IMG/VR virus record: IMGVR_UViG_3300036884_000676
Strand: one strand, 5' to 3'
Length of the DNA: 64,000 nucleotides
Source of the DNA: a virus
Taxonomy: Duplodnaviria; Heunggongvirae; Uroviricota; Caudoviricetes
The position numbers were made by a program, and so were the translations under genes. Positions 9,030-46,575 of this stretch are shown here, one piece after another. The notes beneath the pieces are model-generated. The model ran no database searches. It saw only the letters and a program-made list of their open reading frames with translations, and was not told where the DNA came from. Numbering within the stretch: position 1 is the stretch's first letter; each line of letters opens with the position of its first letter.

Positions 9030-10387
9030 ATGATTACCAGTTTTAAAATATTCGAAAGTTCATTCAAACAATTATCTATTCCAGTAGTTAATAGATATGT
9101 TTATCATTCTTCTAATCCAATATTTAGGAAATCAATATTAGAAAAAGGTTTGATACCAAAAAAAGGGGACAAAGAATTGGAGAAGATCATTATGGTAAAG
9201 CTATATTTGTCACTAATTCAGATAAGAAAAAAGATTGGTTTGATTCGACCTATGATGACGATGTTTATAAGATTGATACAACAAAGACAAATAATTTATG
9301 GTATAAGGATCTAAATATGTATTCAAAAAGCATAGGATCTGATATTTATATTTTAACATTTGAACCTATTCCTCCAGAATCCATAGAATTAATTTATAAG
9401 GGGAGTGGAAATGATAAACTAAAAAGAAATTGGAGAAAAAATAGAATTGTTGAAGAATTAGATTTAAAATCAAATCCATTAATATTTTGGCACGGAACAG
9501 CTAGTCAAGATTTAAGAGGAGGACTTAGTGGTTTACACTTAGGTACTTATGAAGCAGCCAAGATAGCATTAGAAGCAACAATAGGGATTCCAGTAAAAGG
9601 AGAATGGGATGGGAAAAGAGAATATGGGAAAACAAAACTATCTGGTAAAAAAAGATTAAGAACAGGAGAAAAAGGTAAATATCGTATTTCTGGATATAAT
9701 TGTGACATACCAGATGATGATTTTTTTCCAGTAGATAATCCATATAAAGCAAAATATTCAAATGGAGAAGAAATTTCTTTGAAATGTAAACCAATTATTT
9801 TTCCTTGTAAAATTGTTGGACCAATGACAAACACGATTCACAATCCACATTCTGATGATATGGCCAATTCAATGATGAAAGGACAATTAAAAAAAGGGAA
9901 TGCTAAAAAAGGTTATTATTATATAAATGATGTGGAAGATTCAGGATCGATTTCAGTAGTAGTTCCAAATTATAAACATATAGAAATTATGAAAAATGTA
10001 TCGGAAAATGTTACACCAAAAACGAGGATTGAAGATGAAATAGATCGTCTGATGGATAAGGGGTATAAAAATCTTACTCCAGATGAACAGGATTTTTTAA
10101 AAAATCCATATAAATCAACTGAAGAACCAAAAGAAGAACCAAAAAAAGAAATTTTGAAATATTATAGTATAGCTGAAGATTTCTTTCGTAGAGTCTTATC
10201 AACAGATGTCAGGAACTATGAATTAAATGATAATCTTGATATTTTTGATATTGTAAAAGATGATAATGAAGCTTTTGATGTTGCCAATACAATCTATTAT
10301 AAATATGGTATTCAAATAGATCCTGAAAACAACGATGAATTTAAATTAGTTAATATATTCAAGAAAATTAATAGTAAAATCAAATAA
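9030..10387 (+). CDS. Multi-domain ART/Tpt1-like protein split by a -1 frameshift at A7G4 (9158-9168)
   Basis: YHSS...SILEKGL domain continues in the -1 frame (GQRIGEDHYGKAIF...) without a stop into ORF 9317; second FWHGT...GLHLGT domain. Confidence 0.65.
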
Positions 10388-10390
10388 AAA

Positions 10391-10502
10391 ACTCCAACAG
10401 GGTTGCACCCTGATTCTGGGAATGTTACTGGATTTCTCCACCCAGCATCACATCTTGCTGACTTTTCAGACCTTTGTAGTTTACCTGCAATTGGATTGGA
10501 GT
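10391..10502 (-). ncRNA. Unassigned GC-rich multi-hairpin RNA candidate
   Basis: Terminal ACUCCAA/UUGGAGU helix enclosing CUGA-AAAG-UCAG, CUGGG/CCCAG with UGGA-GAAA-UCCA, and CAGGG-UGCAA-CCCUG. Confidence 0.5.
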
Positions 10503-10509
10503 ATAATTT

Positions 10510-10686
10510 TTAACACAATCCCAATTTACCAGCATTTAGAATTTCAGTCTCAACCAATCTCAACCATTCTTTAAAATCATTAATCTCTTGAACAGTTAAT
10601 TTTTCATTGAGAGTATTACATACTATATTGGTCAGTTTCGAATTGTTTGAAACATGAACCATCTTTGATAATAAATTTCTATCCAT
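10510..10686 (-). CDS. 58-aa hypothetical protein MDRNLLSK...GKLGLC (below the ORF-track cutoff)
   Basis: Manual translation; AT-rich promoter-like region upstream. Confidence 0.55.
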   Translation of the reverse strand: MDRNLLSKMVHVSNNSKLTNIVCNTLNEKLTVQEINDFKEWLRLVETEILNAGKLGLC

Positions 10687-10859
10687 TGTCTTTATATTTT
10701 TTATAAAGGTAAAAACTTTAATTGAATAAAAAAAATTCGTCTTATACCATTATATATTTTTTTATCTCAGGGGATTGTTGTAATTTTGTACAGTAAACAT
10801 AAAAATTTCATTTTTTTATTCGAAAAATGTTTCATATATTTGTAAAAAATAACTAAAAG

Positions 10860-12080
10860 ATGGATAAGTATAGTTTCCTTGACCAAGACCAATACAAGTT
10901 TACGATGATGCAGGCCGTCATTCGACTTTTTCCAAATTTAATAGTCAGATACAAATTCATTAATCGTGGAAAGACAGTTTGGCCAGAGGGAATGGCTCAA
11001 AAACTCAGAGAACGATTGAAACGATTTTCCGAGGAAGCAATTCTTACAAAAGAAGAATTGGAATATCTTTCTGGAATCCGTTTTTTCCTTCCATTCTTCC
11101 TTTGGGTTCTTTCAAAATATCGTTTCGATGTAAGTGAAGTTCATGTTACCGATAATATTGACGATACCTATGTTGAGGGATACTGGTGGAGAACAATCCT
11201 TTGGGAATGTATATTTTTATCAATGTTATCTGAGTTATATCACGAGATGACAGGTCATAAACTTCCCGAAAGAAGTATCCTTACCAAACTTAATATGAGT
11301 AAAGGGTGGGATTTTTATAAAAACGACATCAATTTCGTTGAAGCTGGTTTCCGCCGTAGGTTTTCTTTCGATAACCAAGATTATGTTATCAATGATTTGA
11401 TTAAATCCTCAAAAAGTTGTCTTATCGGTACAAGTAATGTATATTTCGCTAAAAAATACAATCTGATACCAATCGGGACTGTCGCTCACGAATGGTACAT
11501 GGCTCATTCAGCTATGTTCGGATATCATGAAGCAAACCGTAAATCATTAGAAGATTGGATCAGGGTTTACAATGGAGATTTGGGTACGGTATTACCCGAC
11601 ACTTTCACATCAAAGGCATTTTTCAACATTTTCGATACACACTTCGCTAAATTGTTTGATGGGTTCAGACAAGATAGTGGTGATCCCTTTATCATCGGTC
11701 ATTTGGGTCTTGATAATTATTACAGGACAATTCATGATAAACATATAATTCAGTCAAAGTCAGTTATTTTTAGTAACGCCTTGGATAATCTCAAATCAAT
11801 CCTTGAAATCAGTGATGAATTCAAAAAAGAACTTATTACCCGTTTCATGATTGGAACTTGGTTAACTTGTGATATTCCTATCATTTCGGATGAATCGAAG
11901 TCTGTTGATTTTTCTACTATGGAAAAAATAAAACCATTAAACATTGTCATGAAATTATCTCATGTGTTTATTGATGGTGTATGGATTCCTGTTGTTAAAT
12001 TGGGAGATGGTAGTGGGGAGAAATATACAGGTGATCCCAATCAGATTGATTTAGCAAAAAGAATTTTAAATATTAAGTAA
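10860..12080 (+). CDS. pncB: Nicotinate phosphoribosyltransferase
   Basis: LDQDQYKFTM, EAGFRRRFS, GTSNV, GTVAHEW, PDTF, RQDSGDP, LNIVMK, KLGD. Confidence 0.92.
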   Translation: MDKYSFLDQDQYKFTMMQAVIRLFPNLIVRYKFINRGKTVWPEGMAQKLRERLKRFSEEAILTKEELEYLSGIRFFLPFFLWVLSKYRFDVSEVHVTDNIDDTYVEGYWWRTILWECIFLSMLSELYHEMTGHKLPERSILTKLNMSKGWDFYKNDINFVEAGFRRRFSFDNQDYVINDLIKSSKSCLIGTSNVYFAKKYNLIPIGTVAHEWYMAHSAMFGYHEANRKSLEDWIRVYNGDLGTVLPDTFTSKAFFNIFDTHFAKLFDGFRQDSGDPFIIGHLGLDNYYRTIHDKHIIQSKSVIFSNALDNLKSILEISDEFKKELITRFMIGTWLTCDIPIISDESKSVDFSTMEKIKPLNIVMKLSHVFIDGVWIPVVKLGDGSGEKYTGDPNQIDLAKRILNIK

Positions 12081-32459: not shown

Positions 32460-32551
32460 GGGAGTGTAGCTGATTTGGTTTAGCGGCAGACCGTTAATCT
32501 GTGACTGAAAATATTGAAATAAAGTTGGTTCGACCCCATCCTCTCCCGCCA
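32460..32551 (+). tRNA. tRNA-Asn(GUU) with a 21-nt AU-rich variable region, CCA encoded
   Basis: GCAGA-CCGUUAA-UCUGU then GACUGAAAAUAUUGAAAUAAA. Confidence 0.8.
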
Positions 32552-32882: not shown

Positions 32883-32968
32883 ATCAATGTGAACGGAATG
32901 GTTATCGTAGAGGTCTCATAAGCCTTTCAACTCGTTGAGTTGTGGTGGTTCGAATCCACTCATTGATA
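32883..32968 (+). tRNA. tRNA with CAU anticodon (Met or Ile2) and a long variable arm
   Basis: GAGGU-CUCAUAA-GCCUU plus CAACUC-GUU-GAGUUG arm. Confidence 0.8.
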
Positions 32969-32974
32969 CAAAAT

Positions 32975-33129: not shown

Positions 33130-33201
33130 GGTTCTGTGGTGTAATGCGTAGCACGAGTGATTCTGAATCACTTGGTTAAGGTTCGAATCCTTACAGAACT
33201 A
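33130..33201 (+). tRNA. tRNA-Gln(CUG)
   Basis: AGUGA-UUCUGAA-UCACU. Confidence 0.9.
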
Positions 33202-33202
33202 C

Positions 33203-41282: not shown

Positions 41283-42272
41283 ATGACTAACAAAAAAGAT
41301 AAAAAAATAGGACTTGTATTTGGAAAGTTCATGCCCCTTCATAATGGACACATGGCCTTGATTCGATTTGCACAATCTCAGTGTGATAAACTATATGTAT
41401 TGTTATGTGAGGCTAATGATGAACCAATATGTGGAAAAATTCGATTAGGATGGTTATTGGACACATTCAAAGATGATTTGAACATAGAAGTGAGAATTAC
41501 TGATGTTCAATTACCATTAGTTCCCTATTCATCTAAATTAATAGCTAAAATGTGGGCCAAATTTTTCAAGGAAGAATTTCCTGATGTGAATATTCTATTT
41601 ACTTCGGAAAGATATGGTGATTTCACAGCAGAATTCATGGGTATAAAACATATACTTTTTGATAATGACAGAGAAGAAGTTTTTGTATCAGCCACCAAGA
41701 TTCGTAATCATCCACTCATTTATTGGGATTATATTCCCGACATTGTAAAACCGTACTTTGTTAAGAAAATTTGTATTTGTGGAACAGAATCAACGGGAAA
41801 AAGTATATTAACCGAAAAACTTGCTAAGAGATTTCATACTAACTTTGTTCCAGAATGGGGTAGAACTTTATGTCCGTCTACAACTGAATGTACCATAGAT
41901 ATAATTAAACAAATCGGTAAATCCCACGCTACTGACATTCACAATAAAATACAATTCTCACATAAATTTTTATTTTCAGATACCGACCTGAATACAACAA
42001 AAATGTATTCCTATTTCTTATTCAATGAAATACCGAAATTTGATGATTGGATTGAACAAGAAAATAAGTTCGATTTGTACATTTTTCTTGAAAACGATGC
42101 CCCTTTTATTCAGGATGGAACACGACTGACAAAAGAAAGAAGGGATGAACTACGAGATTACCATTACGACTACCTTATATCTCAAGGATGTAAAGTTGAA
42201 ATTGTAACTGGTAGTGATTGGGAAATCAGGTATGAAAAAGCTGTCAGAATAATTGAGGAAAATTTCGGATAA
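41283..42272 (+). CDS. nadR: NadR-type bifunctional NMN adenylyltransferase / ribosylnicotinamide kinase (no HTH)
   Basis: FGKFMPLHNGH; ISAT-like VSATKIR; Walker A GTESTGKS; SDTD; DGTR. Confidence 0.92.
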   Translation: MTNKKDKKIGLVFGKFMPLHNGHMALIRFAQSQCDKLYVLLCEANDEPICGKIRLGWLLDTFKDDLNIEVRITDVQLPLVPYSSKLIAKMWAKFFKEEFPDVNILFTSERYGDFTAEFMGIKHILFDNDREEVFVSATKIRNHPLIYWDYIPDIVKPYFVKKICICGTESTGKSILTEKLAKRFHTNFVPEWGRTLCPSTTECTIDIIKQIGKSHATDIHNKIQFSHKFLFSDTDLNTTKMYSYFLFNEIPKFDDWIEQENKFDLYIFLENDAPFIQDGTRLTKERRDELRDYHYDYLISQGCKVEIVTGSDWEIRYEKAVRIIEENFG

Positions 42273-42277
42273 GAATC

Positions 42278-42568
42278 ATGAGAAATTACAAATTAGAAAA
42301 ATTACAAGCCGGAGAAAGTTTCGTTACCAGTGAAAAAGGTAATTCCATGTCACCAATTATTAAGTCGGGACAAAAACATAAACTTGTTCCCGCCACTTGG
42401 AGAGATGTAGATGTAGATGATATAGTCTATTGTAAAGTCAAAGGAAACTTCTACACTCACCTTGTAAAAGCAAAAAATGAAGATAAGGGTTGCTTAATAG
42501 GTAACAACAAAGGTGGAGTTAACGGATGGACTAAACAAGTCTATGGTAAGGTTGTAAAAATCCTTTAA
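42278..42568 (+). CDS. S24/S26 peptidase-like small protein
   Basis: GNSMSPIIKSG...DIV....H.VK. Confidence 0.65.
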   Translation: MRNYKLEKLQAGESFVTSEKGNSMSPIIKSGQKHKLVPATWRDVDVDDIVYCKVKGNFYTHLVKAKNEDKGCLIGNNKGGVNGWTKQVYGKVVKIL

Positions 42569-43824
42569 ATATAAATATTCAGAATTTCATTCAGTTTAAT
42601 TTTGGTTTCCTCATTCAGTGATTTCCCCTTATTTTCATTATACAGAATCATAAAGGAACTTACCACTTTATTGAATTTGAAACTATCCGTATAACCAAAT
42701 ACAGTTTCCTTAAACTTTTCAATATCAACAGTTTCCTTACCAGTTCTTGACATCCATTCATCCCATTTTTTGAAGAATCTGATGATACCATTGATGTTCT
42801 GGTCTGACCATTGACCACCATCGAAATAATGTCCGATGAACATCAGATAAAACCTCAGAACCTTTGGATCATAGTTATCTGGATTAACAATATTTCCTTT
42901 ACTTTTGGCCATCTTGATTCCATTATTCAGAATCATTCCCTGATGCACCACTTTTTTAAAAGGTTCTTCCTCACTGATCATCCCAATATCATACAGGAAC
43001 ATATTAATAAAACGAGCATATATCAGGTGCATGCAAGCGTGTTCACTTCCCCCGATGTACAGATCAACTTGTTTATATTTATCTTTACTACACAGTTCAT
43101 TTTCGTTGTACGAATCACAATAACGGATAAAATAGAAACTACTATCTACGAAAGTATCCAGAGTATCAGTCTCACCTTCAATTGGAATAGGACATCCCCA
43201 ACTTCTTTGTCTACTGACACACCAATCATGTTGATTCTCCAGCCAATCTCTTTGAGAATTGATTGTTTTCTTTGGGTAATCAATCCAATCCAGATTTTTT
43301 ATCAGTCGGTCTTTATATTCGGTGATTTTAAAATACCATTGTTCCATTTGACGAATTTCAATGGTCGTATTACATCTATCACATTTACCATCTTTGACCT
43401 GTTCACGAGCCAGAACAGTTCCACAACTTGGACACCAATTTACTTCACCCCAAGCTTTGTAAGCCAGTCCATGTTCTTTCAGTTTGATAAATATCCATTG
43501 TGTCCACTTCTGGTAAGATGGATCTGAAGTAATTACTTTTTCTTCAAAAGAAGTGTCCATTCTTTCCATCTGTTTACGGAAATTCTCAATGTTTTCATAG
43601 GTAACTTCTCTGGGATCTCTATTGACTGATTTGGCGTAATTTTCAGCTGGAAGTCCAAAGGAATCATACCCAAACGGTTGAAAAACTTTAACTCCTTTAT
43701 ATCTTTGGTATCGACAATAACTGTCTACGATAGCGTAATTATAATAATGTCCGATGTGCAGTCCGTTTCCGCTCGGATAAGGAAACATGACAACCACCAT
43801 TTTTTCATTTTTTATGTCGTTCAT
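42565..43824 (-). CDS. leuS: Minimal leucyl-tRNA synthetase (419 aa)
   Basis: MFPYPSG..LHIGH, FGLPAEN, WCPSC..VLA.EQV, DWCVSRQRSWG, DTFVDSS, YIGG.EHA.MHL.YARF, KMAKSKGN; CP1, Leu-specific and C-terminal domains absent. Confidence 0.9.
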   Translation of the reverse strand: MNDIKNEKMVVVMFPYPSGNGLHIGHYYNYAIVDSYCRYQRYKGVKVFQPFGYDSFGLPAENYAKSVNRDPREVTYENIENFRKQMERMDTSFEEKVITSDPSYQKWTQWIFIKLKEHGLAYKAWGEVNWCPSCGTVLAREQVKDGKCDRCNTTIEIRQMEQWYFKITEYKDRLIKNLDWIDYPKKTINSQRDWLENQHDWCVSRQRSWGCPIPIEGETDTLDTFVDSSFYFIRYCDSYNENELCSKDKYKQVDLYIGGSEHACMHLIYARFINMFLYDIGMISEEEPFKKVVHQGMILNNGIKMAKSKGNIVNPDNYDPKVLRFYLMFIGHYFDGGQWSDQNINGIIRFFKKWDEWMSRTGKETVDIEKFKETVFGYTDSFKFNKVVSSFMILYNENKGKSLNEETKIKLNEILNIYI

Positions 43825-44584
43825 TGTCTTTTAATTTGTTTGAGAAATGTTCAATTGAGATATTATGTTTTTTGATTGTTTTATAAATAAGACTTCTATT
43901 ACTTTCGTTATATTCCATATTTAAATTTTTCATAATATCTCTATAAGATTTTGATTTAGAAATAATCCCTTTAAAAAGATTAATATCATAATCGAAATAA
44001 TCATAATTTCTTTTATTTGTGAAATCTTTCCAATCATCTTTTTCAATTATTTCCTTATCTTCGTATCTAAAATAACACCCACCAGCCGTCCCTTTCAATT
44101 GACAACTAAATTTAATTTGTTGTCTAAAAATACCTGTTTCTCTTTCAGCTCCTCGAAGGCTAATGAATTTTTTTAAAGGAGTAAAATTTTTATCATACAT
44201 TATAATTGATTTCTTATTTGGATTGGATATTTTCATTAGTTTTTTACTTTTATCAGAATGTTTTTTTCCTGTCCAATCTACACCATCTCCACCATCTGTA
44301 CTATTCTTCAATCTAAATCCCCAGCATTTAAATTGAGAAATCCAATATCTTTCTAATGAATCAATATTATTTTTATCACCGATATCAAGTATTTCTATTA
44401 TTGGTGAAAGATTTTTATTTTTGAGATATTTTAACCATTTATTTTTTCTTGTCCAAGGTTCTTGACGGATACTCCAATTTGACATATGTCCCCTCAATCT
44501 TTTTTCTAAATTTTTGGTCTTACCTACATATTTTATAATTTTATCTTCTGGGTCTGTTAATGTATAAATATAAAATTCCATCAT
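43805..44584 (-). mobile_element. Free-standing GIY-YIG homing endonuclease with NUMOD-like repeats
   Basis: YIYTL...YVGKT...R...H; ERYWI..F; N.TDGGDG; KHSDKSKKLM. Confidence 0.85.
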
Positions 44585-44633
44585 AGATTTTTATTTCTAT
44601 ATATAAAAATTTATGTGTAATGTTTCATAGTTG

Positions 44634-44707
44634 TAACCCCACCCGGACTTGAACCGAGATATTTAGTTTCTAAAACTAACGCCGCTAACCAATTAGGCCA
44701 TGGGGTC
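44634..44707 (-). tRNA. tRNA with Leu(UAG) anticodon but no variable arm
   Basis: UUAGU-UUUAGAA-ACUAA, 4-nt variable loop, A73. Confidence 0.85.
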
Positions 44708-44717
44708 ATTATTTTAG

Positions 44718-44791
44718 TAGTTCTGTTCGGACTTGAACCGAAATATTTGGTTTTTGAAACCAACGCCGCTAACCAATTAGGCCACAGAACC
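44718..44791 (-). tRNA. tRNA with Leu(CAA) anticodon but no variable arm
   Basis: UUGGU-UUCAAAA-ACCAA, 4-nt variable loop, A73. Confidence 0.85.
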
Positions 44792-44796
44792 TTTTG

Positions 44797-44881
44797 TATC
44801 GATGGTGGGACTCGAACCCACACCCTCGTAATGAGGAACGGCTTCTGAGGCCGTCGCGTCTACCAATTCCGCCACACCGAC
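44797..44881 (-). tRNA. tRNA-Leu(CAG), class II
   Basis: Canonical cloverleaf. Confidence 0.93.
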
Positions 44882-44933
44882 AAATTTCAAATATTTACCA
44901 GTTTTTTGAAAAACTGTTCAAAATTTGATTTTG

Positions 44934-45007
44934 TAGCACCTGTCGGATTCGAACCGACAAACTTGGATTTTAAGACCAATATGGTTGCTCTATTACATCA
45001 AGGTGCC
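44934..45007 (-). tRNA. tRNA with Leu(UAA) anticodon but no variable arm
   Basis: UUGGU-CUUAAAA-UCCAA, 4-nt variable loop, A73. Confidence 0.82.
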
Positions 45008-45012
45008 ATTTG

Positions 45013-45096
45013 TAGCCTCTGTGGGAATCGAACCCACACGGTCTTTCGACCACTGGATTTTGAGTCCAGAGCGTCTACCAATTCCGCCAAGAGGCC
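45013..45096 (-). tRNA. tRNA-Leu(CAA), class II
   Basis: Canonical cloverleaf. Confidence 0.94.
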
Positions 45097-45101
45097 ATTT
45101 G

Positions 45102-45186
45102 TGGGAGTTGATGGAGTTGCACCACCCGAGCCCTGAGGACAACAGATTTACAGTCTGCCCCGCTACTACTTACGGAATAAACTCCC
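45102..45186 (-). tRNA. tRNA-Tyr(GUA), class II
   Basis: CAGA-CUGUAAA-UCUG, long variable arm. Confidence 0.9.
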
Positions 45187-45190
45187 AAAG

Positions 45191-45275
45191 TGACCAAGGT
45201 GGGATTCGAACCCACACGGGCGTAAAGCCCAACGGATTTTAAGTCCGTCGCGTCTACCAGTTCCGCCACAAGGCC
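45191..45275 (-). tRNA. tRNA-Leu(UAA), class II, with two U-U mismatches in the acceptor stem
   Basis: Cloverleaf. Confidence 0.88.
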
Positions 45276-45283
45276 AATTTCAG

Positions 45284-45365
45284 TGTCCATAGGGGGACTC
45301 GAACCCCCACGCCTTTCGACAATAGTTTCTTAGGCTATCGCGTCTACCAGTTCCGCCATACGGAC
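45284..45365 (-). tRNA. tRNA-Leu(AAG), class II
   Basis: AUAGC-CUAAGAA-ACUAU; A34. Confidence 0.88.
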
Positions 45366-45382
45366 AATTTCAAAGAACTCAG

Positions 45383-45454
45383 TGGGAATAGAAGGATTCG
45401 AACCTACAAATCACGATTTTACAGACCGCTGAGCGACCACTGCTCAATATTCCC
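45383..45454 (-). tRNA. tRNA with Tyr(GUA) anticodon but short variable loop
   Basis: GCGGU-CUGUAAA-AUCGU, 5-nt variable loop. Confidence 0.82.
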
Positions 45455-45459
45455 GTTTG

Positions 45460-45532
45460 TGGAAGTACAAGGATTCGAACCTCGAATACACGGTGTTACA
45501 AGCCGCTGAGCGACCATCCGCTCACTACTTCC
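45460..45532 (-). tRNA. tRNA with Tyr(GUA) anticodon but short variable loop
   Basis: GCGGC-UUGUAAC-ACCGU, 5-nt variable loop. Confidence 0.82.
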
Positions 45533-45533
45533 T

Positions 45534-45689
45534 TGGTGGGGGTGGATGGAATTTCACACATCGGATGATAAGTTTACAGCTTACGAAGTAACTGTTTTAC
45601 ATCACTACAATTGATTGGCCTTCGATAAAGGAAACAGTCCAATTCAGAATCCTTATCAATCGAGATACTTTGGTACAGTAATCACCCCC
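45534..45689 (-). ncRNA. 156-nt tRNA-Tyr(GUA)-like RNA with a giant D-arm domain, CCA encoded
   Basis: GGGGGUG/CACCCCC-A-CCA, GUAAG-CUGUAAA-CUUAU, T-like arm; ~95 nt in place of the D arm. Confidence 0.7.
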
Positions 45690-45720
45690 TTTTATTTTCA
45701 ATATGTTTAAGAACATGCAA

Positions 45721-45752
45721 CAAAAAACCCATCACTTTTTCAAGGACGGGTC
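45721..45752 (-). terminator. Attenuator terminator ACCCGUC...GAUGGGU plus U-run
   Basis: 7-bp stem followed by U-run; competing strand GGAUGGGUU at 45799-45807. Confidence 0.85.
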
Positions 45753-45780
45753 TTTCTGATTCTATGATAATATTTAAAGT

Positions 45781-45867
45781 TTATCTTTCAGCAATACTAA
45801 CCCATCCTCGATTTTGATAGAGGTATAAATACAAATAATATAGGTTAATATTTACTCTGTTTTTCAT
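45781..45867 (-). CDS. 28-aa Leu/Tyr leader peptide MKNRVNINLYYLYLYLYQNRGWVSIAER
   Basis: Manual translation; nine consecutive Leu/Tyr codons; stops 28 nt before the terminator. Confidence 0.88.
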   Translation of the reverse strand: MKNRVNINLYYLYLYLYQNRGWVSIAER

Positions 45868-45963
45868 AACTTTTATTCTTTCTGAAAATTATATATTAAA
45901 TAATTTTAGTCTGTTTTTTCTATTTATACGACAAAGGTATGTAAAAGTTTTAAAATAAAAAAA

Positions 45964-46575
45964 TTATTTTGAAGTTTTCTTGAAATAGTCTATCACTTCT
46001 TTGAATTTAACATCAGATTTTATTTCATTAAAATCTAAATCATAGATGTCATATACATATTCTTTTGTGTTGTTTTGGTCTACATATATATAAACTATAA
46101 ACTTGGGATTAACAAGTCTAACATCGAATATGACCTGTGATTCTTTATCTTGATCGTTATAGGATTTTATTGCCTCTGGTGAAGTGAATACTAATCCATA
46201 TCTACCATAAGAACCCAGATTCTTAGTGTATCTACTGTCCATTTTCTTAGTAGTACAATCCCAAGCCACACTGAAATTACCTGATTGTACTTCTTTCATT
46301 CCTGTTTTGGTTTTAGTCAGGGATGAATACCAAGAACCGATACCTCTGAATCCTGTTTTAAGGATTCCCTCGATATTTTCTTTTTTGGTAAAGTGTATAA
46401 TGGGTGAATCGGATGGTAATTTTTTAGAACCTATCCAAGAAAATCCTCTTTGTGGTCTTTTATTCTCAAAAGAAAGGATACAATTATGAAAATCATCGAT
46501 TGTTTCGATTCTTTGGATGACTTCCTTATTCTTTCTGGTAAACTCAGTGAAATTATCCATATACTGAAGGTTCAT
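45964..46575 (-). CDS. CTS-like N-terminus plus ART/Tpt1-like domain
   Basis: MDNFTEF; IHFT...GILKTGF; QESQVIF-like DKESQVIF. Confidence 0.55.
   Translation of the reverse strand: MNLQYMDNFTEFTRKNKEVIQRIETIDDFHNCILSFENKRPQRGFSWIGSKKLPSDSPIIHFTKKENIEGILKTGFRGIGSWYSSLTKTKTGMKEVQSGNFSVAWDCTTKKMDSRYTKNLGSYGRYGLVFTSPEAIKSYNDQDKESQVIFDVRLVNPKFIVYIYVDQNNTKEYVYDIYDLDFNEIKSDVKFKEVIDYFKKTSK

What the first reader, a model, noticed from the sequence alone, without database searches (positions are those of the whole stretch)
42565..43824. Half-size leucyl-tRNA synthetase beside variable-arm-less tRNA-Leu genes: a possible natural orthogonal pair
Seen: 419 aa versus about 800-950 for bacterial LeuRS. QRDW runs straight into LENQHDWCVSRQR (~43205-43253), so the CP1 editing domain is cleanly excised. 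The Leu-specific domain before KMAKS, the N-terminal helix and the C-terminal domain are also absent, while HIGH and the Leu-pocket motifs remain. Established: CP1 edits mischarged Ile/norvaline, the C-terminal domain contacts the tRNA elbow, and CP1-less LeuRS is known in some Mycoplasma. Inference: this enzyme charges the three arm-less Leu-anticodon tRNAs 0.8-1.2 kb upstream and may be error-prone.
Basis: partly seen in the sequence, partly recalled or inferred. Interest (0 to 1): 0.92.

Follow-up and report, generated by a model that had tools for sequence, protein, structure and literature searches.

The report
Half-size phage leucyl-tRNA synthetase
A giant peat-soil phage encodes a strongly conserved leucine-tRNA-charging enzyme cut to half its normal size, but the short leucine tRNAs next to it are a common phage trait and not its private partners.

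Summary
ORF 42565-43824 (-) encodes a 419-aa bacterial-type LeuRS. It lacks the CP1 editing domain, a 52-aa insertion, about 27 N-terminal residues and the last 95 residues, which include the elbow-binding C-terminal domain. HIGH, KMAKS, the Zn knuckle and the leucine-pocket residues are intact. The AlphaFold model (pLDDT 94.5) superposes on T. thermophilus and E. coli LeuRS (Z 38).

The gene belongs to a large monophyletic huge-phage clade under strong purifying selection. No separate gene supplies the missing domains in this contig or in five near-complete relatives. Seven Leu tRNAs lie upstream; three have class I bodies and covary as real tRNAs.

The "orthogonal pair" reading is not supported as stated:
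- Two near-complete relatives have the enzyme but only long-arm Leu tRNAs.
- One huge phage without any LeuRS has arm-less Leu tRNAs.
- Similar 74-78-nt Leu tRNAs are annotated in ordinary Bacillus, Pseudomonas, Stenotrophomonas and Mycobacterium phages that lack LeuRS.
- Both Leu tRNA classes keep A73 and A15:U48.

Most likely this is an editing-free minimal LeuRS that serves phage Leu tRNAs of both shapes. Activity without the C-terminal domain is untested, and that is the real surprise. This scan found the family before on other DNA.

The parts
42565..43824 (-). Minimal LeuRS, 419 aa: Rossmann catalytic core, ZN1 knuckle and a truncated helical anticodon-binding domain. The start could also be M9 or M13.
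43747..43758 (-). HIGH motif (residues 23-26)
   Evidence: H23, G25 and H26 are invariant or nearly so
43372..43434 (-). ZN1 zinc knuckle (C131, C134, C148, C151)
43204..43254 (-). Junction where CP1 is excised: QRDW-LENQHDWCVSRQR, residues 191-207
42901..42915 (-). KMAKS loop (residues 304-308), preceded by the linker NNGI in place of a leucine-specific domain
   Evidence: PMC3643597 for the GKDG precedent
43805..44584 (-). GIY-YIG homing-endonuclease-like ORF (259 aa) between the tRNA array and LeuRS. Its end overlaps the LeuRS start by 20 nt.
   Evidence: same position in LR756501
44633..44707 (-). tRNA-Leu(UAG), 75 nt, class I body (4-nt variable loop), G1.U72, A73, A15:U48
44717..44791 (-). 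tRNA-Leu(CAA), 75 nt, class I body. Its acceptor stem is identical to that of tRNA-Gln(CUG) at 33130.
44796..44881 (-). tRNA-Leu(CAG), 86 nt, class II
44933..45007 (-). tRNA-Leu(UAA), 75 nt, class I body, no GG doublet in the D loop
45012..45096 (-). tRNA-Leu(CAA), 85 nt, class II
45190..45275 (-). tRNA-Leu(UAA), 86 nt, class II
45283..45365 (-). tRNA-Leu(AAG), 83 nt, class II
45382..45454 (-). tRNA-Tyr(GUA), 73 nt, class I body, first tRNA of the array

Best explanation
The gene encodes a functional, editing-free minimal leucyl-tRNA synthetase of a huge-phage-specific clade. It keeps the complete leucine/ATP site, the ZN1 knuckle and most of the helical tRNA-binding domain. It activates leucine and, during infection, most likely leucylates Leu tRNAs. 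These would be chiefly the phage's own Leu tRNAs, both long-arm and arm-less, recognised through features the two classes share (A73 and the A15:U48 core) and not through the variable arm or the elbow. It is part of the phage's translation-supply module and is not a private partner of the arm-less tRNAs. Shown: domain content, fold, conservation, phage restriction, linkage to Leu tRNA arrays, and lack of obligate co-occurrence with arm-less tRNAs. Inferred: catalytic activity, tRNA substrates and lowered fidelity.
For: - Family assignment: LeuRS is by far the best family (TIGR00396, 381 bits, against 160 or less for Val/Ile/Met).
- Fold: the model has pLDDT 94.5 and pTM 0.92. 413-418 of 419 residues superpose on Tt/Ec LeuRS at Z 38 and rmsd 1.7-2.0. 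The best Foldseek match is CP1-less M. mobile LeuRS 3ZIU, TMq 0.93.
- Active site: catalytic and leucine-site residues are invariant across 60 homologues (H23, D54, E261/H262/H266, Q295, K304/M305/K307).
- Conservation: more than 120 clusters at 69% identity or above, on contigs up to 780 kb. The clade is monophyletic. dN is 0.2-0.3 with dS saturated, so dN/dS is about 0.1 or less.
- tRNA linkage: in 6 of 34 loci the gene lies directly downstream of Leu tRNAs on the same strand. All nine LeuRS-positive genomes examined encode two or more Leu tRNAs (at least four in all but one).
- Shared identity marks: A15:U48 in 47 of 47 and A73 in 46 of 47 Leu tRNAs of both classes.
- Precedent: M. mobile LeuRS works without CP1 and with a tetrapeptide in place of the LSD, and removing the LSD removes sensing of variable-arm size (PMC3643597).
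Against: - Deleting the C-terminal domain abolishes aminoacylation in T. thermophilus and E. coli LeuRS (PMC3561953), and this enzyme lacks it.
- The retained core is net acidic (mean charge -3.9, pI 6.3), against +4.1 and pI 8.2 for the same columns of full-length homologues. No basic surface has evidently replaced the lost tRNA grip.
- tRNA-Gln(CUG) at 33130 has the same acceptor stem and A73 as arm-less Leu(CAA), so recognition of the acceptor stem alone would mischarge it.
- No biochemical data exist for any member of the clade.
Confidence: 0.55

Rival explanations
1. Orthogonal pair: the mini-LeuRS is dedicated to the arm-less Leu tRNAs, which host LeuRS cannot charge.
For: - The gene lies 0.8-1.2 kb from three arm-less Leu tRNAs here, and the same arrangement occurs in LR756501.
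- Seven of nine LeuRS-positive genomes have arm-less Leu tRNAs.
- E. coli LeuRS does not charge S. coelicolor type I tRNALeu (PMC6614811).
- The CTD, which docks on G19:C56, is absent, and 6 of 16 arm-less Leu tRNAs lack the D-loop GG doublet, against 3 of 31 class II Leu tRNAs (Fisher p 0.005 for arm-less Leu against all other tRNAs).
Against: - G002 (complete, terminal repeats, 424-aa enzyme) and G003 have only long-arm Leu tRNAs.
- LR756504 has no LeuRS but has Leu(CAA) of 75 nt and Leu(AAG) of 76 nt.
- Class I-shaped Leu tRNAs with A73 are annotated in cultured Bacillus, Pseudomonas, Stenotrophomonas and Mycobacterium phages, and none of these appears among the tblastn LeuRS hits.
- In 4 of 6 linked loci the tRNA next to LeuRS is class II.
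- Class swapping affects many other amino acids that have no matching synthetase.
Confidence: 0.1
2. The enzyme charges tRNA only together with a trans-acting tRNA-binding partner, either a phage or a host protein, that replaces the lost C-terminal domain.
For: CTD loss is lethal to activity in model LeuRSs (PMC3561953). The core is acidic. G002 has a free-standing Trbp111-like ORF (PF01588, E 2.5e-20) 10 kb from its LeuRS.
Against: - No CP1, Anticodon_1 or LeuRS C-terminal pieces occur elsewhere in this contig or in five near-complete relatives.
- The Trbp111-like ORF is present in only 1 of 5 genomes.
- No neighbouring gene is conserved across the 34 loci.
Confidence: 0.1
3. It is not a tRNA-charging enzyme. 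It would be a leucine-activating or leucine- or tRNA-binding protein with another role, such as leucyl transfer to another acceptor, a sensor or regulator of the Leu/Tyr tRNA operon, or a decoy.
For: It lacks the C-terminal tRNA-binding domain that model LeuRSs need for aminoacylation. Its whole-protein score is below the curated LeuRS cut-off (381 against 548 bits). Other pared-down synthetase paralogues with non-tRNA roles are known (GluQRS and MshC types; MshC appears weakly).
Against: It retains the helical tRNA-binding domain, the ZN1 knuckle and the conserved post-CP1 motif. It is repeatedly linked to Leu tRNA genes. Related phages carry further synthetase-like ORFs (SerRS and other class I open frames), which points to a translation-supply set. 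No conserved non-tRNA partner gene was found.
Confidence: 0.2
4. It is a decaying remnant of a captured host leuS gene.
For: It is half the normal size, and two relatives (L034, L036) have the frame split.
Against: Hundreds of intact relatives have the same boundaries. dN/dS is about 0.1 or less and the catalytic residues are invariant. The model is confident and compact.
Confidence: 0.02

Closest known systems
Mycoplasma mobile LeuRS (PDB 3ZIU, 637 aa)
   Same: Bacterial-type LeuRS with CP1 naturally replaced by a short linker and the leucine-specific domain replaced by a tetrapeptide (GKDG there, NNGI here). It is the best Foldseek match (TMq 0.93) and is editing-deficient (PMC3643597).
   Different: MmLeuRS keeps the roughly 52-aa insertion, the full helical domain and the C-terminal elbow-binding domain. 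The phage enzyme has lost all three and is about 220 aa shorter.
Canonical bacterial LeuRS (T. thermophilus 1H3N/2BYT, E. coli 4AQ7)
   Same: Same catalytic core, ZN1 and helical domain; 36-39% identity over 413-418 structurally aligned residues, Z 34-38.
   Different: The phage enzyme has no CP1, no Tt 437-486 insertion, no N-terminal extension and no CTD. Deleting the CTD alone inactivates the Tt and Ec enzymes (PMC3561953).
Streptomyces coelicolor LeuRS with type I and type II tRNALeu (PMC6614811)
   Same: Class I-shaped and class II tRNALeu coexist in one compartment, and one LeuRS serves both.
   Different: ScoLeuRS is a long full-length enzyme whose LSD enables charging of the type I tRNA. 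Here the enzyme has no LSD and no CTD, and the tRNAs are phage-encoded.
Human and yeast mitochondrial LeuRS with type I tRNALeu
   Same: LeuRS working on Leu tRNAs that lack a long variable arm.
   Different: The mitochondrial enzymes are full length and keep a CP1 fold and a C-terminal domain.
LeuRS urzymes (PMC9026127)
   Same: Engineered deletion of CP1 and the anticodon-binding domain leaves a catalytically competent core.
   Different: Urzymes are about 130-aa laboratory constructs with low activity. This is a natural 419-aa protein under strong purifying selection that keeps ZN1 and most of the helical domain.
Class I-shaped tRNA-Leu genes annotated in cultured phages (Bacillus phage P59, Pseudomonas phage vB_PseuGesM_254, Stenotrophomonas phage DLP_6, Mycobacterium phage Archie)
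   Same: 74-78 nt, Leu anticodons, A73, 4-5-nt variable loop; 75-84% identical to the huge-phage arm-less Leu tRNAs.
   Different: None of those phages appears among the LeuRS hits, so their tRNAs must depend on host LeuRS.

Membership tests
Bacterial-type leucyl-tRNA synthetase (NCBIfam TIGR00396 leuS_bact) | Class I signature motifs HIGH and KMSKS | tested here: met
   HIGH at 23-26. KMAKS at 304-308, which is KMSKS in most relatives.
Bacterial-type leucyl-tRNA synthetase (NCBIfam TIGR00396 leuS_bact) | LeuRS is the best-scoring synthetase family, and the leucine and adenylate site residues are conserved | tested here: met
   381 bits for leuS_bact against 160 or less for ValRS/IleRS/MetRS. 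D54, E261, H262, H266, Q295 and M297 align with Tt D80, E540, H541, H545, Q574 and M576 and are invariant or nearly so.
Bacterial-type leucyl-tRNA synthetase (NCBIfam TIGR00396 leuS_bact) | Whole-protein score above the curated equivalog cut-off | tested here: not met
   381.4 bits against a cut-off of 548.4, because four modules are missing.
Bacterial-type leucyl-tRNA synthetase (NCBIfam TIGR00396 leuS_bact) | CP1 editing domain (PF13603) | tested here: not met
   No residues lie between positions 196 and 197, where full-length homologues carry 141-269 aa. There is no PF13603 hit in the contig.
Bacterial-type leucyl-tRNA synthetase (NCBIfam TIGR00396 leuS_bact) | C-terminal tRNA-elbow-binding domain | tested here: not met
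   The model ends at Tt 783 / Ec 765. About 95 residues are missing relative to homologues. No match to model positions 760-843 anywhere in the contig or in five relatives.
Bacterial-type leucyl-tRNA synthetase (NCBIfam TIGR00396 leuS_bact) | Leucylation of tRNALeu | not testable with these tools
   Needs an aminoacylation assay.
Naturally CP1-less LeuRS (M. mobile type) | CP1 replaced by a short linker, LSD replaced by a tetrapeptide | tested here: met
   0 residues at the CP1 site and NNGI before KMAKS. GKDG precedent in PMC3643597.
Naturally CP1-less LeuRS (M. mobile type) | Retained C-terminal domain and the roughly 52-aa insertion after the post-CP1 motif | tested here: not met
   Both are absent. 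The 611-653-aa CP1-less forms keep them.
Orthogonal (private) synthetase-tRNA pair | Enzyme and special tRNA always occur together | tested here: not met
   LeuRS without arm-less tRNA: G002, G003. Arm-less tRNA without LeuRS: LR756504 and cultured phages.
Orthogonal (private) synthetase-tRNA pair | No cross-charging with the host pair in either direction | not testable with these tools
   Needs a cross-charging matrix.
Type I (short variable loop) tRNALeu | Cloverleaf with a 4-5-nt variable loop, a Leu anticodon and A73 | tested here: met
   ARAGORN structures. 18 sequences from 8 genomes, with 18 of 19 pairs keeping pairing through double changes. A73 in 17 of 18. A15:U48 in 16 of 16.

The most novel reading that the evidence does not exclude
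The huge-phage mini-LeuRS is a shape-agnostic leucylating enzyme. Having shed the elbow-binding C-terminal domain, the variable-arm-sensing region and the editing domain, it would charge any Leu tRNA body (long-arm, arm-less, GG-less elbow). This would let these phages run a second set of structurally disguised tRNAs that escape host tRNA-targeting defences or host synthetase limits. It would be the smallest natural LeuRS and would overturn the rule that bacterial LeuRS needs its C-terminal domain.
Probability: 0.2. Interest if true: 0.85.

Novelty: new variant of a known kind. Interest (0 to 1): 0.6.

Why it matters
- If active, this would be the smallest natural LeuRS, about 220 aa shorter than the M. 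mobile enzyme. It would also be a natural counter-example to the finding that bacterial LeuRS stops working without its C-terminal domain.
- It gives a ready-made test of how little of a class Ia synthetase translation needs, and a compact scaffold for engineering.
- The negative result matters as well. Arm-less Leu tRNAs are widespread in ordinary phages without LeuRS, so they are not evidence of a private code channel. Host LeuRSs from several phyla probably accept them, which contrasts with the published E. coli result on a Streptomyces type I tRNALeu.
- The genome-wide swapping of tRNA body classes in these huge phages remains unexplained.

Tried and rejected
- Missing domains encoded elsewhere. 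PF13603, PF08264 and TIGR00396 searches of the 211-kb contig, and PF13603 and TIGR00396 searches of five 97-100% complete relatives, found none. The only weak CP1 hit lies inside a separate 749-aa synthetase-like ORF in G001.
- Conserved neighbouring partner gene. tblastn of the window's neighbours and all-against-all ORF clustering over 35 loci found no gene that travels with LeuRS.
- Trbp111-like tRNA-binding partner. Found in only 1 of 5 genomes.
- Expression. No RNA holder was listed for the stretch or for the gene. The DNA is held by many peat metagenome runs.
- Promoter and terminator scan of 42000-46200. Promoter-like sites were no more frequent than in shuffles, and no terminator-like site lies on the minus strand between the tRNA array and LeuRS. 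Co-transcription is therefore neither shown nor excluded.
- G1.U72 as a Leu-specific mark. It is present in 37 of 47 Leu tRNAs but also in most Arg and Glu tRNAs, and in the LeuRS-less phage, so it is not specific.
- Origin of the arm-less tRNAs from within-genome similarity. Inconclusive.
- Taxonomic origin of the clade. The cluster members carry no organism names.
- Literature. I found no description of a CTD-less LeuRS or of phage type I tRNALeu.
- A wider census of LeuRS against arm-less tRNA across IMG/VR was considered and dropped, because a pattern scan would give too many chance matches.
Full report
**Observation**

The minus-strand ORF 42565-43824 encodes 419 aa. Pfam finds only class I synthetase catalytic families. 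In NCBIfam the best model by far is bacterial LeuRS: TIGR00396 scores 381 bits in four stretches, below its 548-bit cut-off, while ValRS, IleRS and MetRS models score 160 bits or less.

phmmer against T. thermophilus LeuRS aligns query 7-198 to Tt 34-227, 197-215 to Tt 418-436, and 211-299 to Tt 487-578. KMAKS aligns to Tt KMSKS at 638.

**Fold**

An AlphaFold2 model built on a 60-sequence alignment is very confident (pLDDT 94.5, pTM 0.92).
- The best Foldseek match is the naturally CP1-less M. mobile LeuRS 3ZIU (TMq 0.93).
- VIA-align places 413-418 of the 419 residues on Tt LeuRS 26-783 and E. coli LeuRS 27-765, at Z 34-38 and rmsd 1.7-2.4 A.

**What is missing**

I parsed the alignment against 28 full-length homologues. 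The protein lacks exactly four modules:
- about 27 N-terminal residues;
- CP1, which is 141-269 aa in homologues and 0 here;
- a roughly 52-aa insertion after residue 215;
- about 95 C-terminal residues, namely the end of the helical domain plus the elbow-binding C-terminal domain (Tt 817-876 according to PMC3561953).

The leucine-specific domain is absent (linker NNGI), but it is equally absent in the nearest full-length homologues. Its loss is a lineage trait, as in B. subtilis and M. mobile (PMC3643597).

**Is it a real gene?**

The word-indexed search returned more than 120 clusters at 69-100% identity, nearly all 404-442 aa. Many sit on contigs of 0.4-0.78 Mb. IMG/VR gave 32 loci on viral contigs. 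GenBank huge-phage genomes carry related forms:
- LR745206 (634 kb): a 422-aa form at 76% identity.
- LR756501 (735 kb): a 508-aa form without CP1 or CTD.

In a core tree the 414-431-aa proteins form one clade. Its sister, P0123, is a 530-aa form with a 115-aa mini-CP1. P0065 (515 aa, 80% identical in the flanks, on a phage contig) also keeps a mini-CP1 with the TTKPxT and GTGxVMxVPxxDxRD editing motifs. CP1-less forms of 569-653 aa arise several times elsewhere in the tree.

HIGH, the Zn-knuckle cysteines, the EHxxxH and QGM leucine-site residues and KMxKS are invariant or nearly so. Against 14 relatives, dN is 0.19-0.31 while dS is saturated, so dN/dS is about 0.1 or less. This is a maintained gene and not a remnant.

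**Are the missing domains supplied in trans?**

- PF13603, PF08264 and TIGR00396 searches of the 211-kb contig found nothing beyond the gene itself.
- In five relatives rated 97-100% complete, no CP1 or C-terminal piece is encoded separately.
- No neighbouring gene is conserved across 35 loci.
- A Trbp111-like ORF occurs in only one relative.
- The retained core is net acidic (-3.9, pI 6.3), against +4.1 and pI 8.2 for the same columns of full-length homologues. I see no basic surface that would compensate for the lost tRNA grip.

**The tRNAs**

ARAGORN finds an array on the same strand upstream. In order it holds Tyr(GUA) 73 nt, Leu(AAG) 83, Leu(UAA) 86, Leu(CAA) 85, Leu(UAA) 75, Leu(CAG) 86, Leu(CAA) 75 and Leu(UAG) 75. 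A GIY-YIG ORF follows, and its end overlaps the LeuRS start.

The three 75-nt tRNAs have normal cloverleaves with 4-5-nt variable loops. Eighteen such tRNAs from eight huge-phage genomes align well, and 18 of 19 base pairs are kept through double changes. They are real tRNAs under selection.

All 47 Leu tRNAs examined, of both classes, have A15:U48, and 46 have A73. These are the established bacterial tRNALeu identity features (summarised in PMC3643597). G1.U72 is common (37 of 47), but it is shared with Arg and Glu tRNAs.

Each arm-less anticodon (UAG, CAA, UAA) also has a class II twin in the genome.

**Test of the pairing idea**

I took a tRNA census of whole or near-whole genomes.

| | Arm-less Leu tRNA present | Arm-less Leu tRNA absent |
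|---|---|---|
| LeuRS present | this contig, G001, G004, G005, LR745206, LR756501, and the L029 contig | G002 (complete, terminal repeats, 424-aa enzyme; all 55 Rfam tRNA hits inspected) and G003 |
| LeuRS absent | LR756504 (636 kb), with Leu(CAA) 75 nt and Leu(AAG) 76 nt | LR756511 (595 kb) |

Neither feature needs the other.

More tellingly, a BLAST of one arm-less tRNA against 50,697 phage records found full-length matches annotated as tRNA-Leu in many ordinary phages. I confirmed 74-78-nt, A73, Leu-anticodon tRNAs in four of them:
- Bacillus phage P59 (UAG, UAA);
- Pseudomonas phage vB_PseuGesM_254 (CAA, UAG);
- Stenotrophomonas phage DLP_6 (CAG);
- Mycobacterium phage Archie (UAG).

None of these phages is among the tblastn hits for LeuRS. 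Arm-less tRNA-Leu is thus a widespread phage trait that must normally depend on host LeuRS.

Three further points count against a private pair:
- Where the mini-LeuRS abuts tRNAs (6 of 34 loci), the adjacent tRNA is class II Leu in four cases.
- Class swapping is genome-wide. Long-arm versions of Met, Val, Thr, Glu, His, Lys and Asn tRNAs occur here and in relatives without dedicated synthetases.
- Arm-less Leu(CAA) has the same acceptor stem and discriminator as tRNA-Gln(CUG) at 33130. The enzyme cannot be reading the acceptor stem alone without mischarging.

**What still favours a link**

- Seven of nine LeuRS-positive genomes carry arm-less Leu tRNAs.
- Six of 16 arm-less Leu tRNAs lack the D-loop GG doublet on which the canonical CTD docks, against 3 of 31 class II Leu and 37 of 359 other tRNAs (Fisher p = 0.005).
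- E. coli LeuRS does not charge S. coelicolor type I tRNALeu, and the LSD region decides that ability (PMC6614811).
- Replacing the LSD with a tetrapeptide removes discrimination by variable-arm size (PMC3643597).

An enzyme without an LSD or a CTD could therefore be indifferent to tRNA body shape.

**Verdict**

The most likely reading (0.55) is an active, editing-free minimal LeuRS that serves Leu tRNAs of both shapes as part of the huge-phage translation-supply set. Al-Shayeb et al. proposed that role in general terms (PMC7162821).

The main uncertainty is whether any bacterial-type LeuRS can charge tRNA without its C-terminal domain, since deleting it abolishes aminoacylation in the Tt and Ec enzymes (PMC3561953). 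That uncertainty keeps two rivals alive: dependence on a partner (0.1) and a non-tRNA role (0.2). The exclusive orthogonal pair gets 0.1.

**Prior work**

I found no paper describing this enzyme form or phage type I tRNALeu. This scan has flagged the same family on other genomes, with concordant follow-ups.

Noticed in passing
window 32460-32551 and 32883-32969; G000:C1 10356-10445, 70817-70903, 71243-71328, 73120-73203, 89071-89154, 90879-90963, 91234-91316: Genome-wide swapping of tRNA body class. Long-variable-arm (81-92 nt) tRNAs carry Asn, Met, Val, Thr, Glu, His and Lys anticodons, each beside a normal 72-77-nt copy. The same pattern occurs in relatives G001-G004, LR745206 and LR756504. 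The purpose is unknown.
   Followed up: partly
window 45382-45454 (-): tRNA-Tyr(GUA) of 73 nt with a class I body, although bacterial tRNATyr is class II. Relatives mostly carry 82-90-nt Tyr tRNAs.
   Followed up: no
window 43805-44584 (-); L002 5216-5986: The GIY-YIG ORF between the Leu tRNA array and LeuRS is 65% identical to the one at the same position in the 735-kb phage LR756501, while the two LeuRS proteins are only 38-44% identical (419 against 508 aa). This suggests a homing endonuclease that targets this junction. L036 has a copy directly downstream of a split LeuRS, and L023, L024 and L012 carry more distant copies elsewhere.
   Followed up: partly
window 44717-44791 (-) and 33130-33202 (+): Arm-less tRNA-Leu(CAA) and tRNA-Gln(CUG) share an identical acceptor stem (GGUUCUG/CAGAACU) and A73, but their bodies differ.
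   Followed up: yes
P0065 (L085 9633-11180) and P0123: Close phage relatives of the mini-LeuRS keep a shrunken CP1 of about 115 aa with the TTKPxT and GTGxVMxVPxxDxRD editing motifs. This may be the smallest natural editing domain, and it is an intermediate in the loss of CP1.
   Followed up: partly
G002:C1:102849-103121: A free-standing Trbp111-like tRNA-binding ORF (118 aa, PF01588, E 2.5e-20) lies 10 kb upstream of that phage's mini-LeuRS. It is absent from four other genomes.
   Followed up: no
G001:C1 51.8-53.5 kb and 396.7-398.2 kb; G002:C1 82.8-84.2, 193.9-195.8 and 342.3-342.9 kb; G003:C1 401.4-402.9 kb; G005:C1 144.8-145.3 kb: Relatives carry further class Ia synthetase-like open frames of 454-516 aa and 666-749 aa, shorter than typical bacterial Ile/Val enzymes. 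Size reduction of phage synthetases may be general.
   Followed up: no
L096 299-453; L097 216-376; L098 301-377; L099 301-375: Class I-shaped tRNA-Leu genes (74-78 nt, A73) occur in cultured Bacillus, Pseudomonas, Stenotrophomonas and Mycobacterium phages that encode no LeuRS. I found no paper discussing them.
   Followed up: partly
L034 and L036, LeuRS region about 10001-11250: In two relatives the mini-LeuRS frame is split in two (280+191 aa and 213+251 aa). In L036 a GIY-YIG ORF lies directly downstream. The cause could be a frameshift, an intervening element or an assembly error.
   Followed up: no
L007 3537; G003 and LR756511 arrays: Suppressor-type tRNAs with anticodon CUA occur in several related huge phages. 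None was seen in this 211-kb contig.
   Followed up: no
window 41283-42272 (+): A NadR-like ORF (cytidylyltransferase-like N-terminus plus AAA_28 kinase domain) lies beyond a 96-aa ORF convergent with LeuRS.
   Followed up: no
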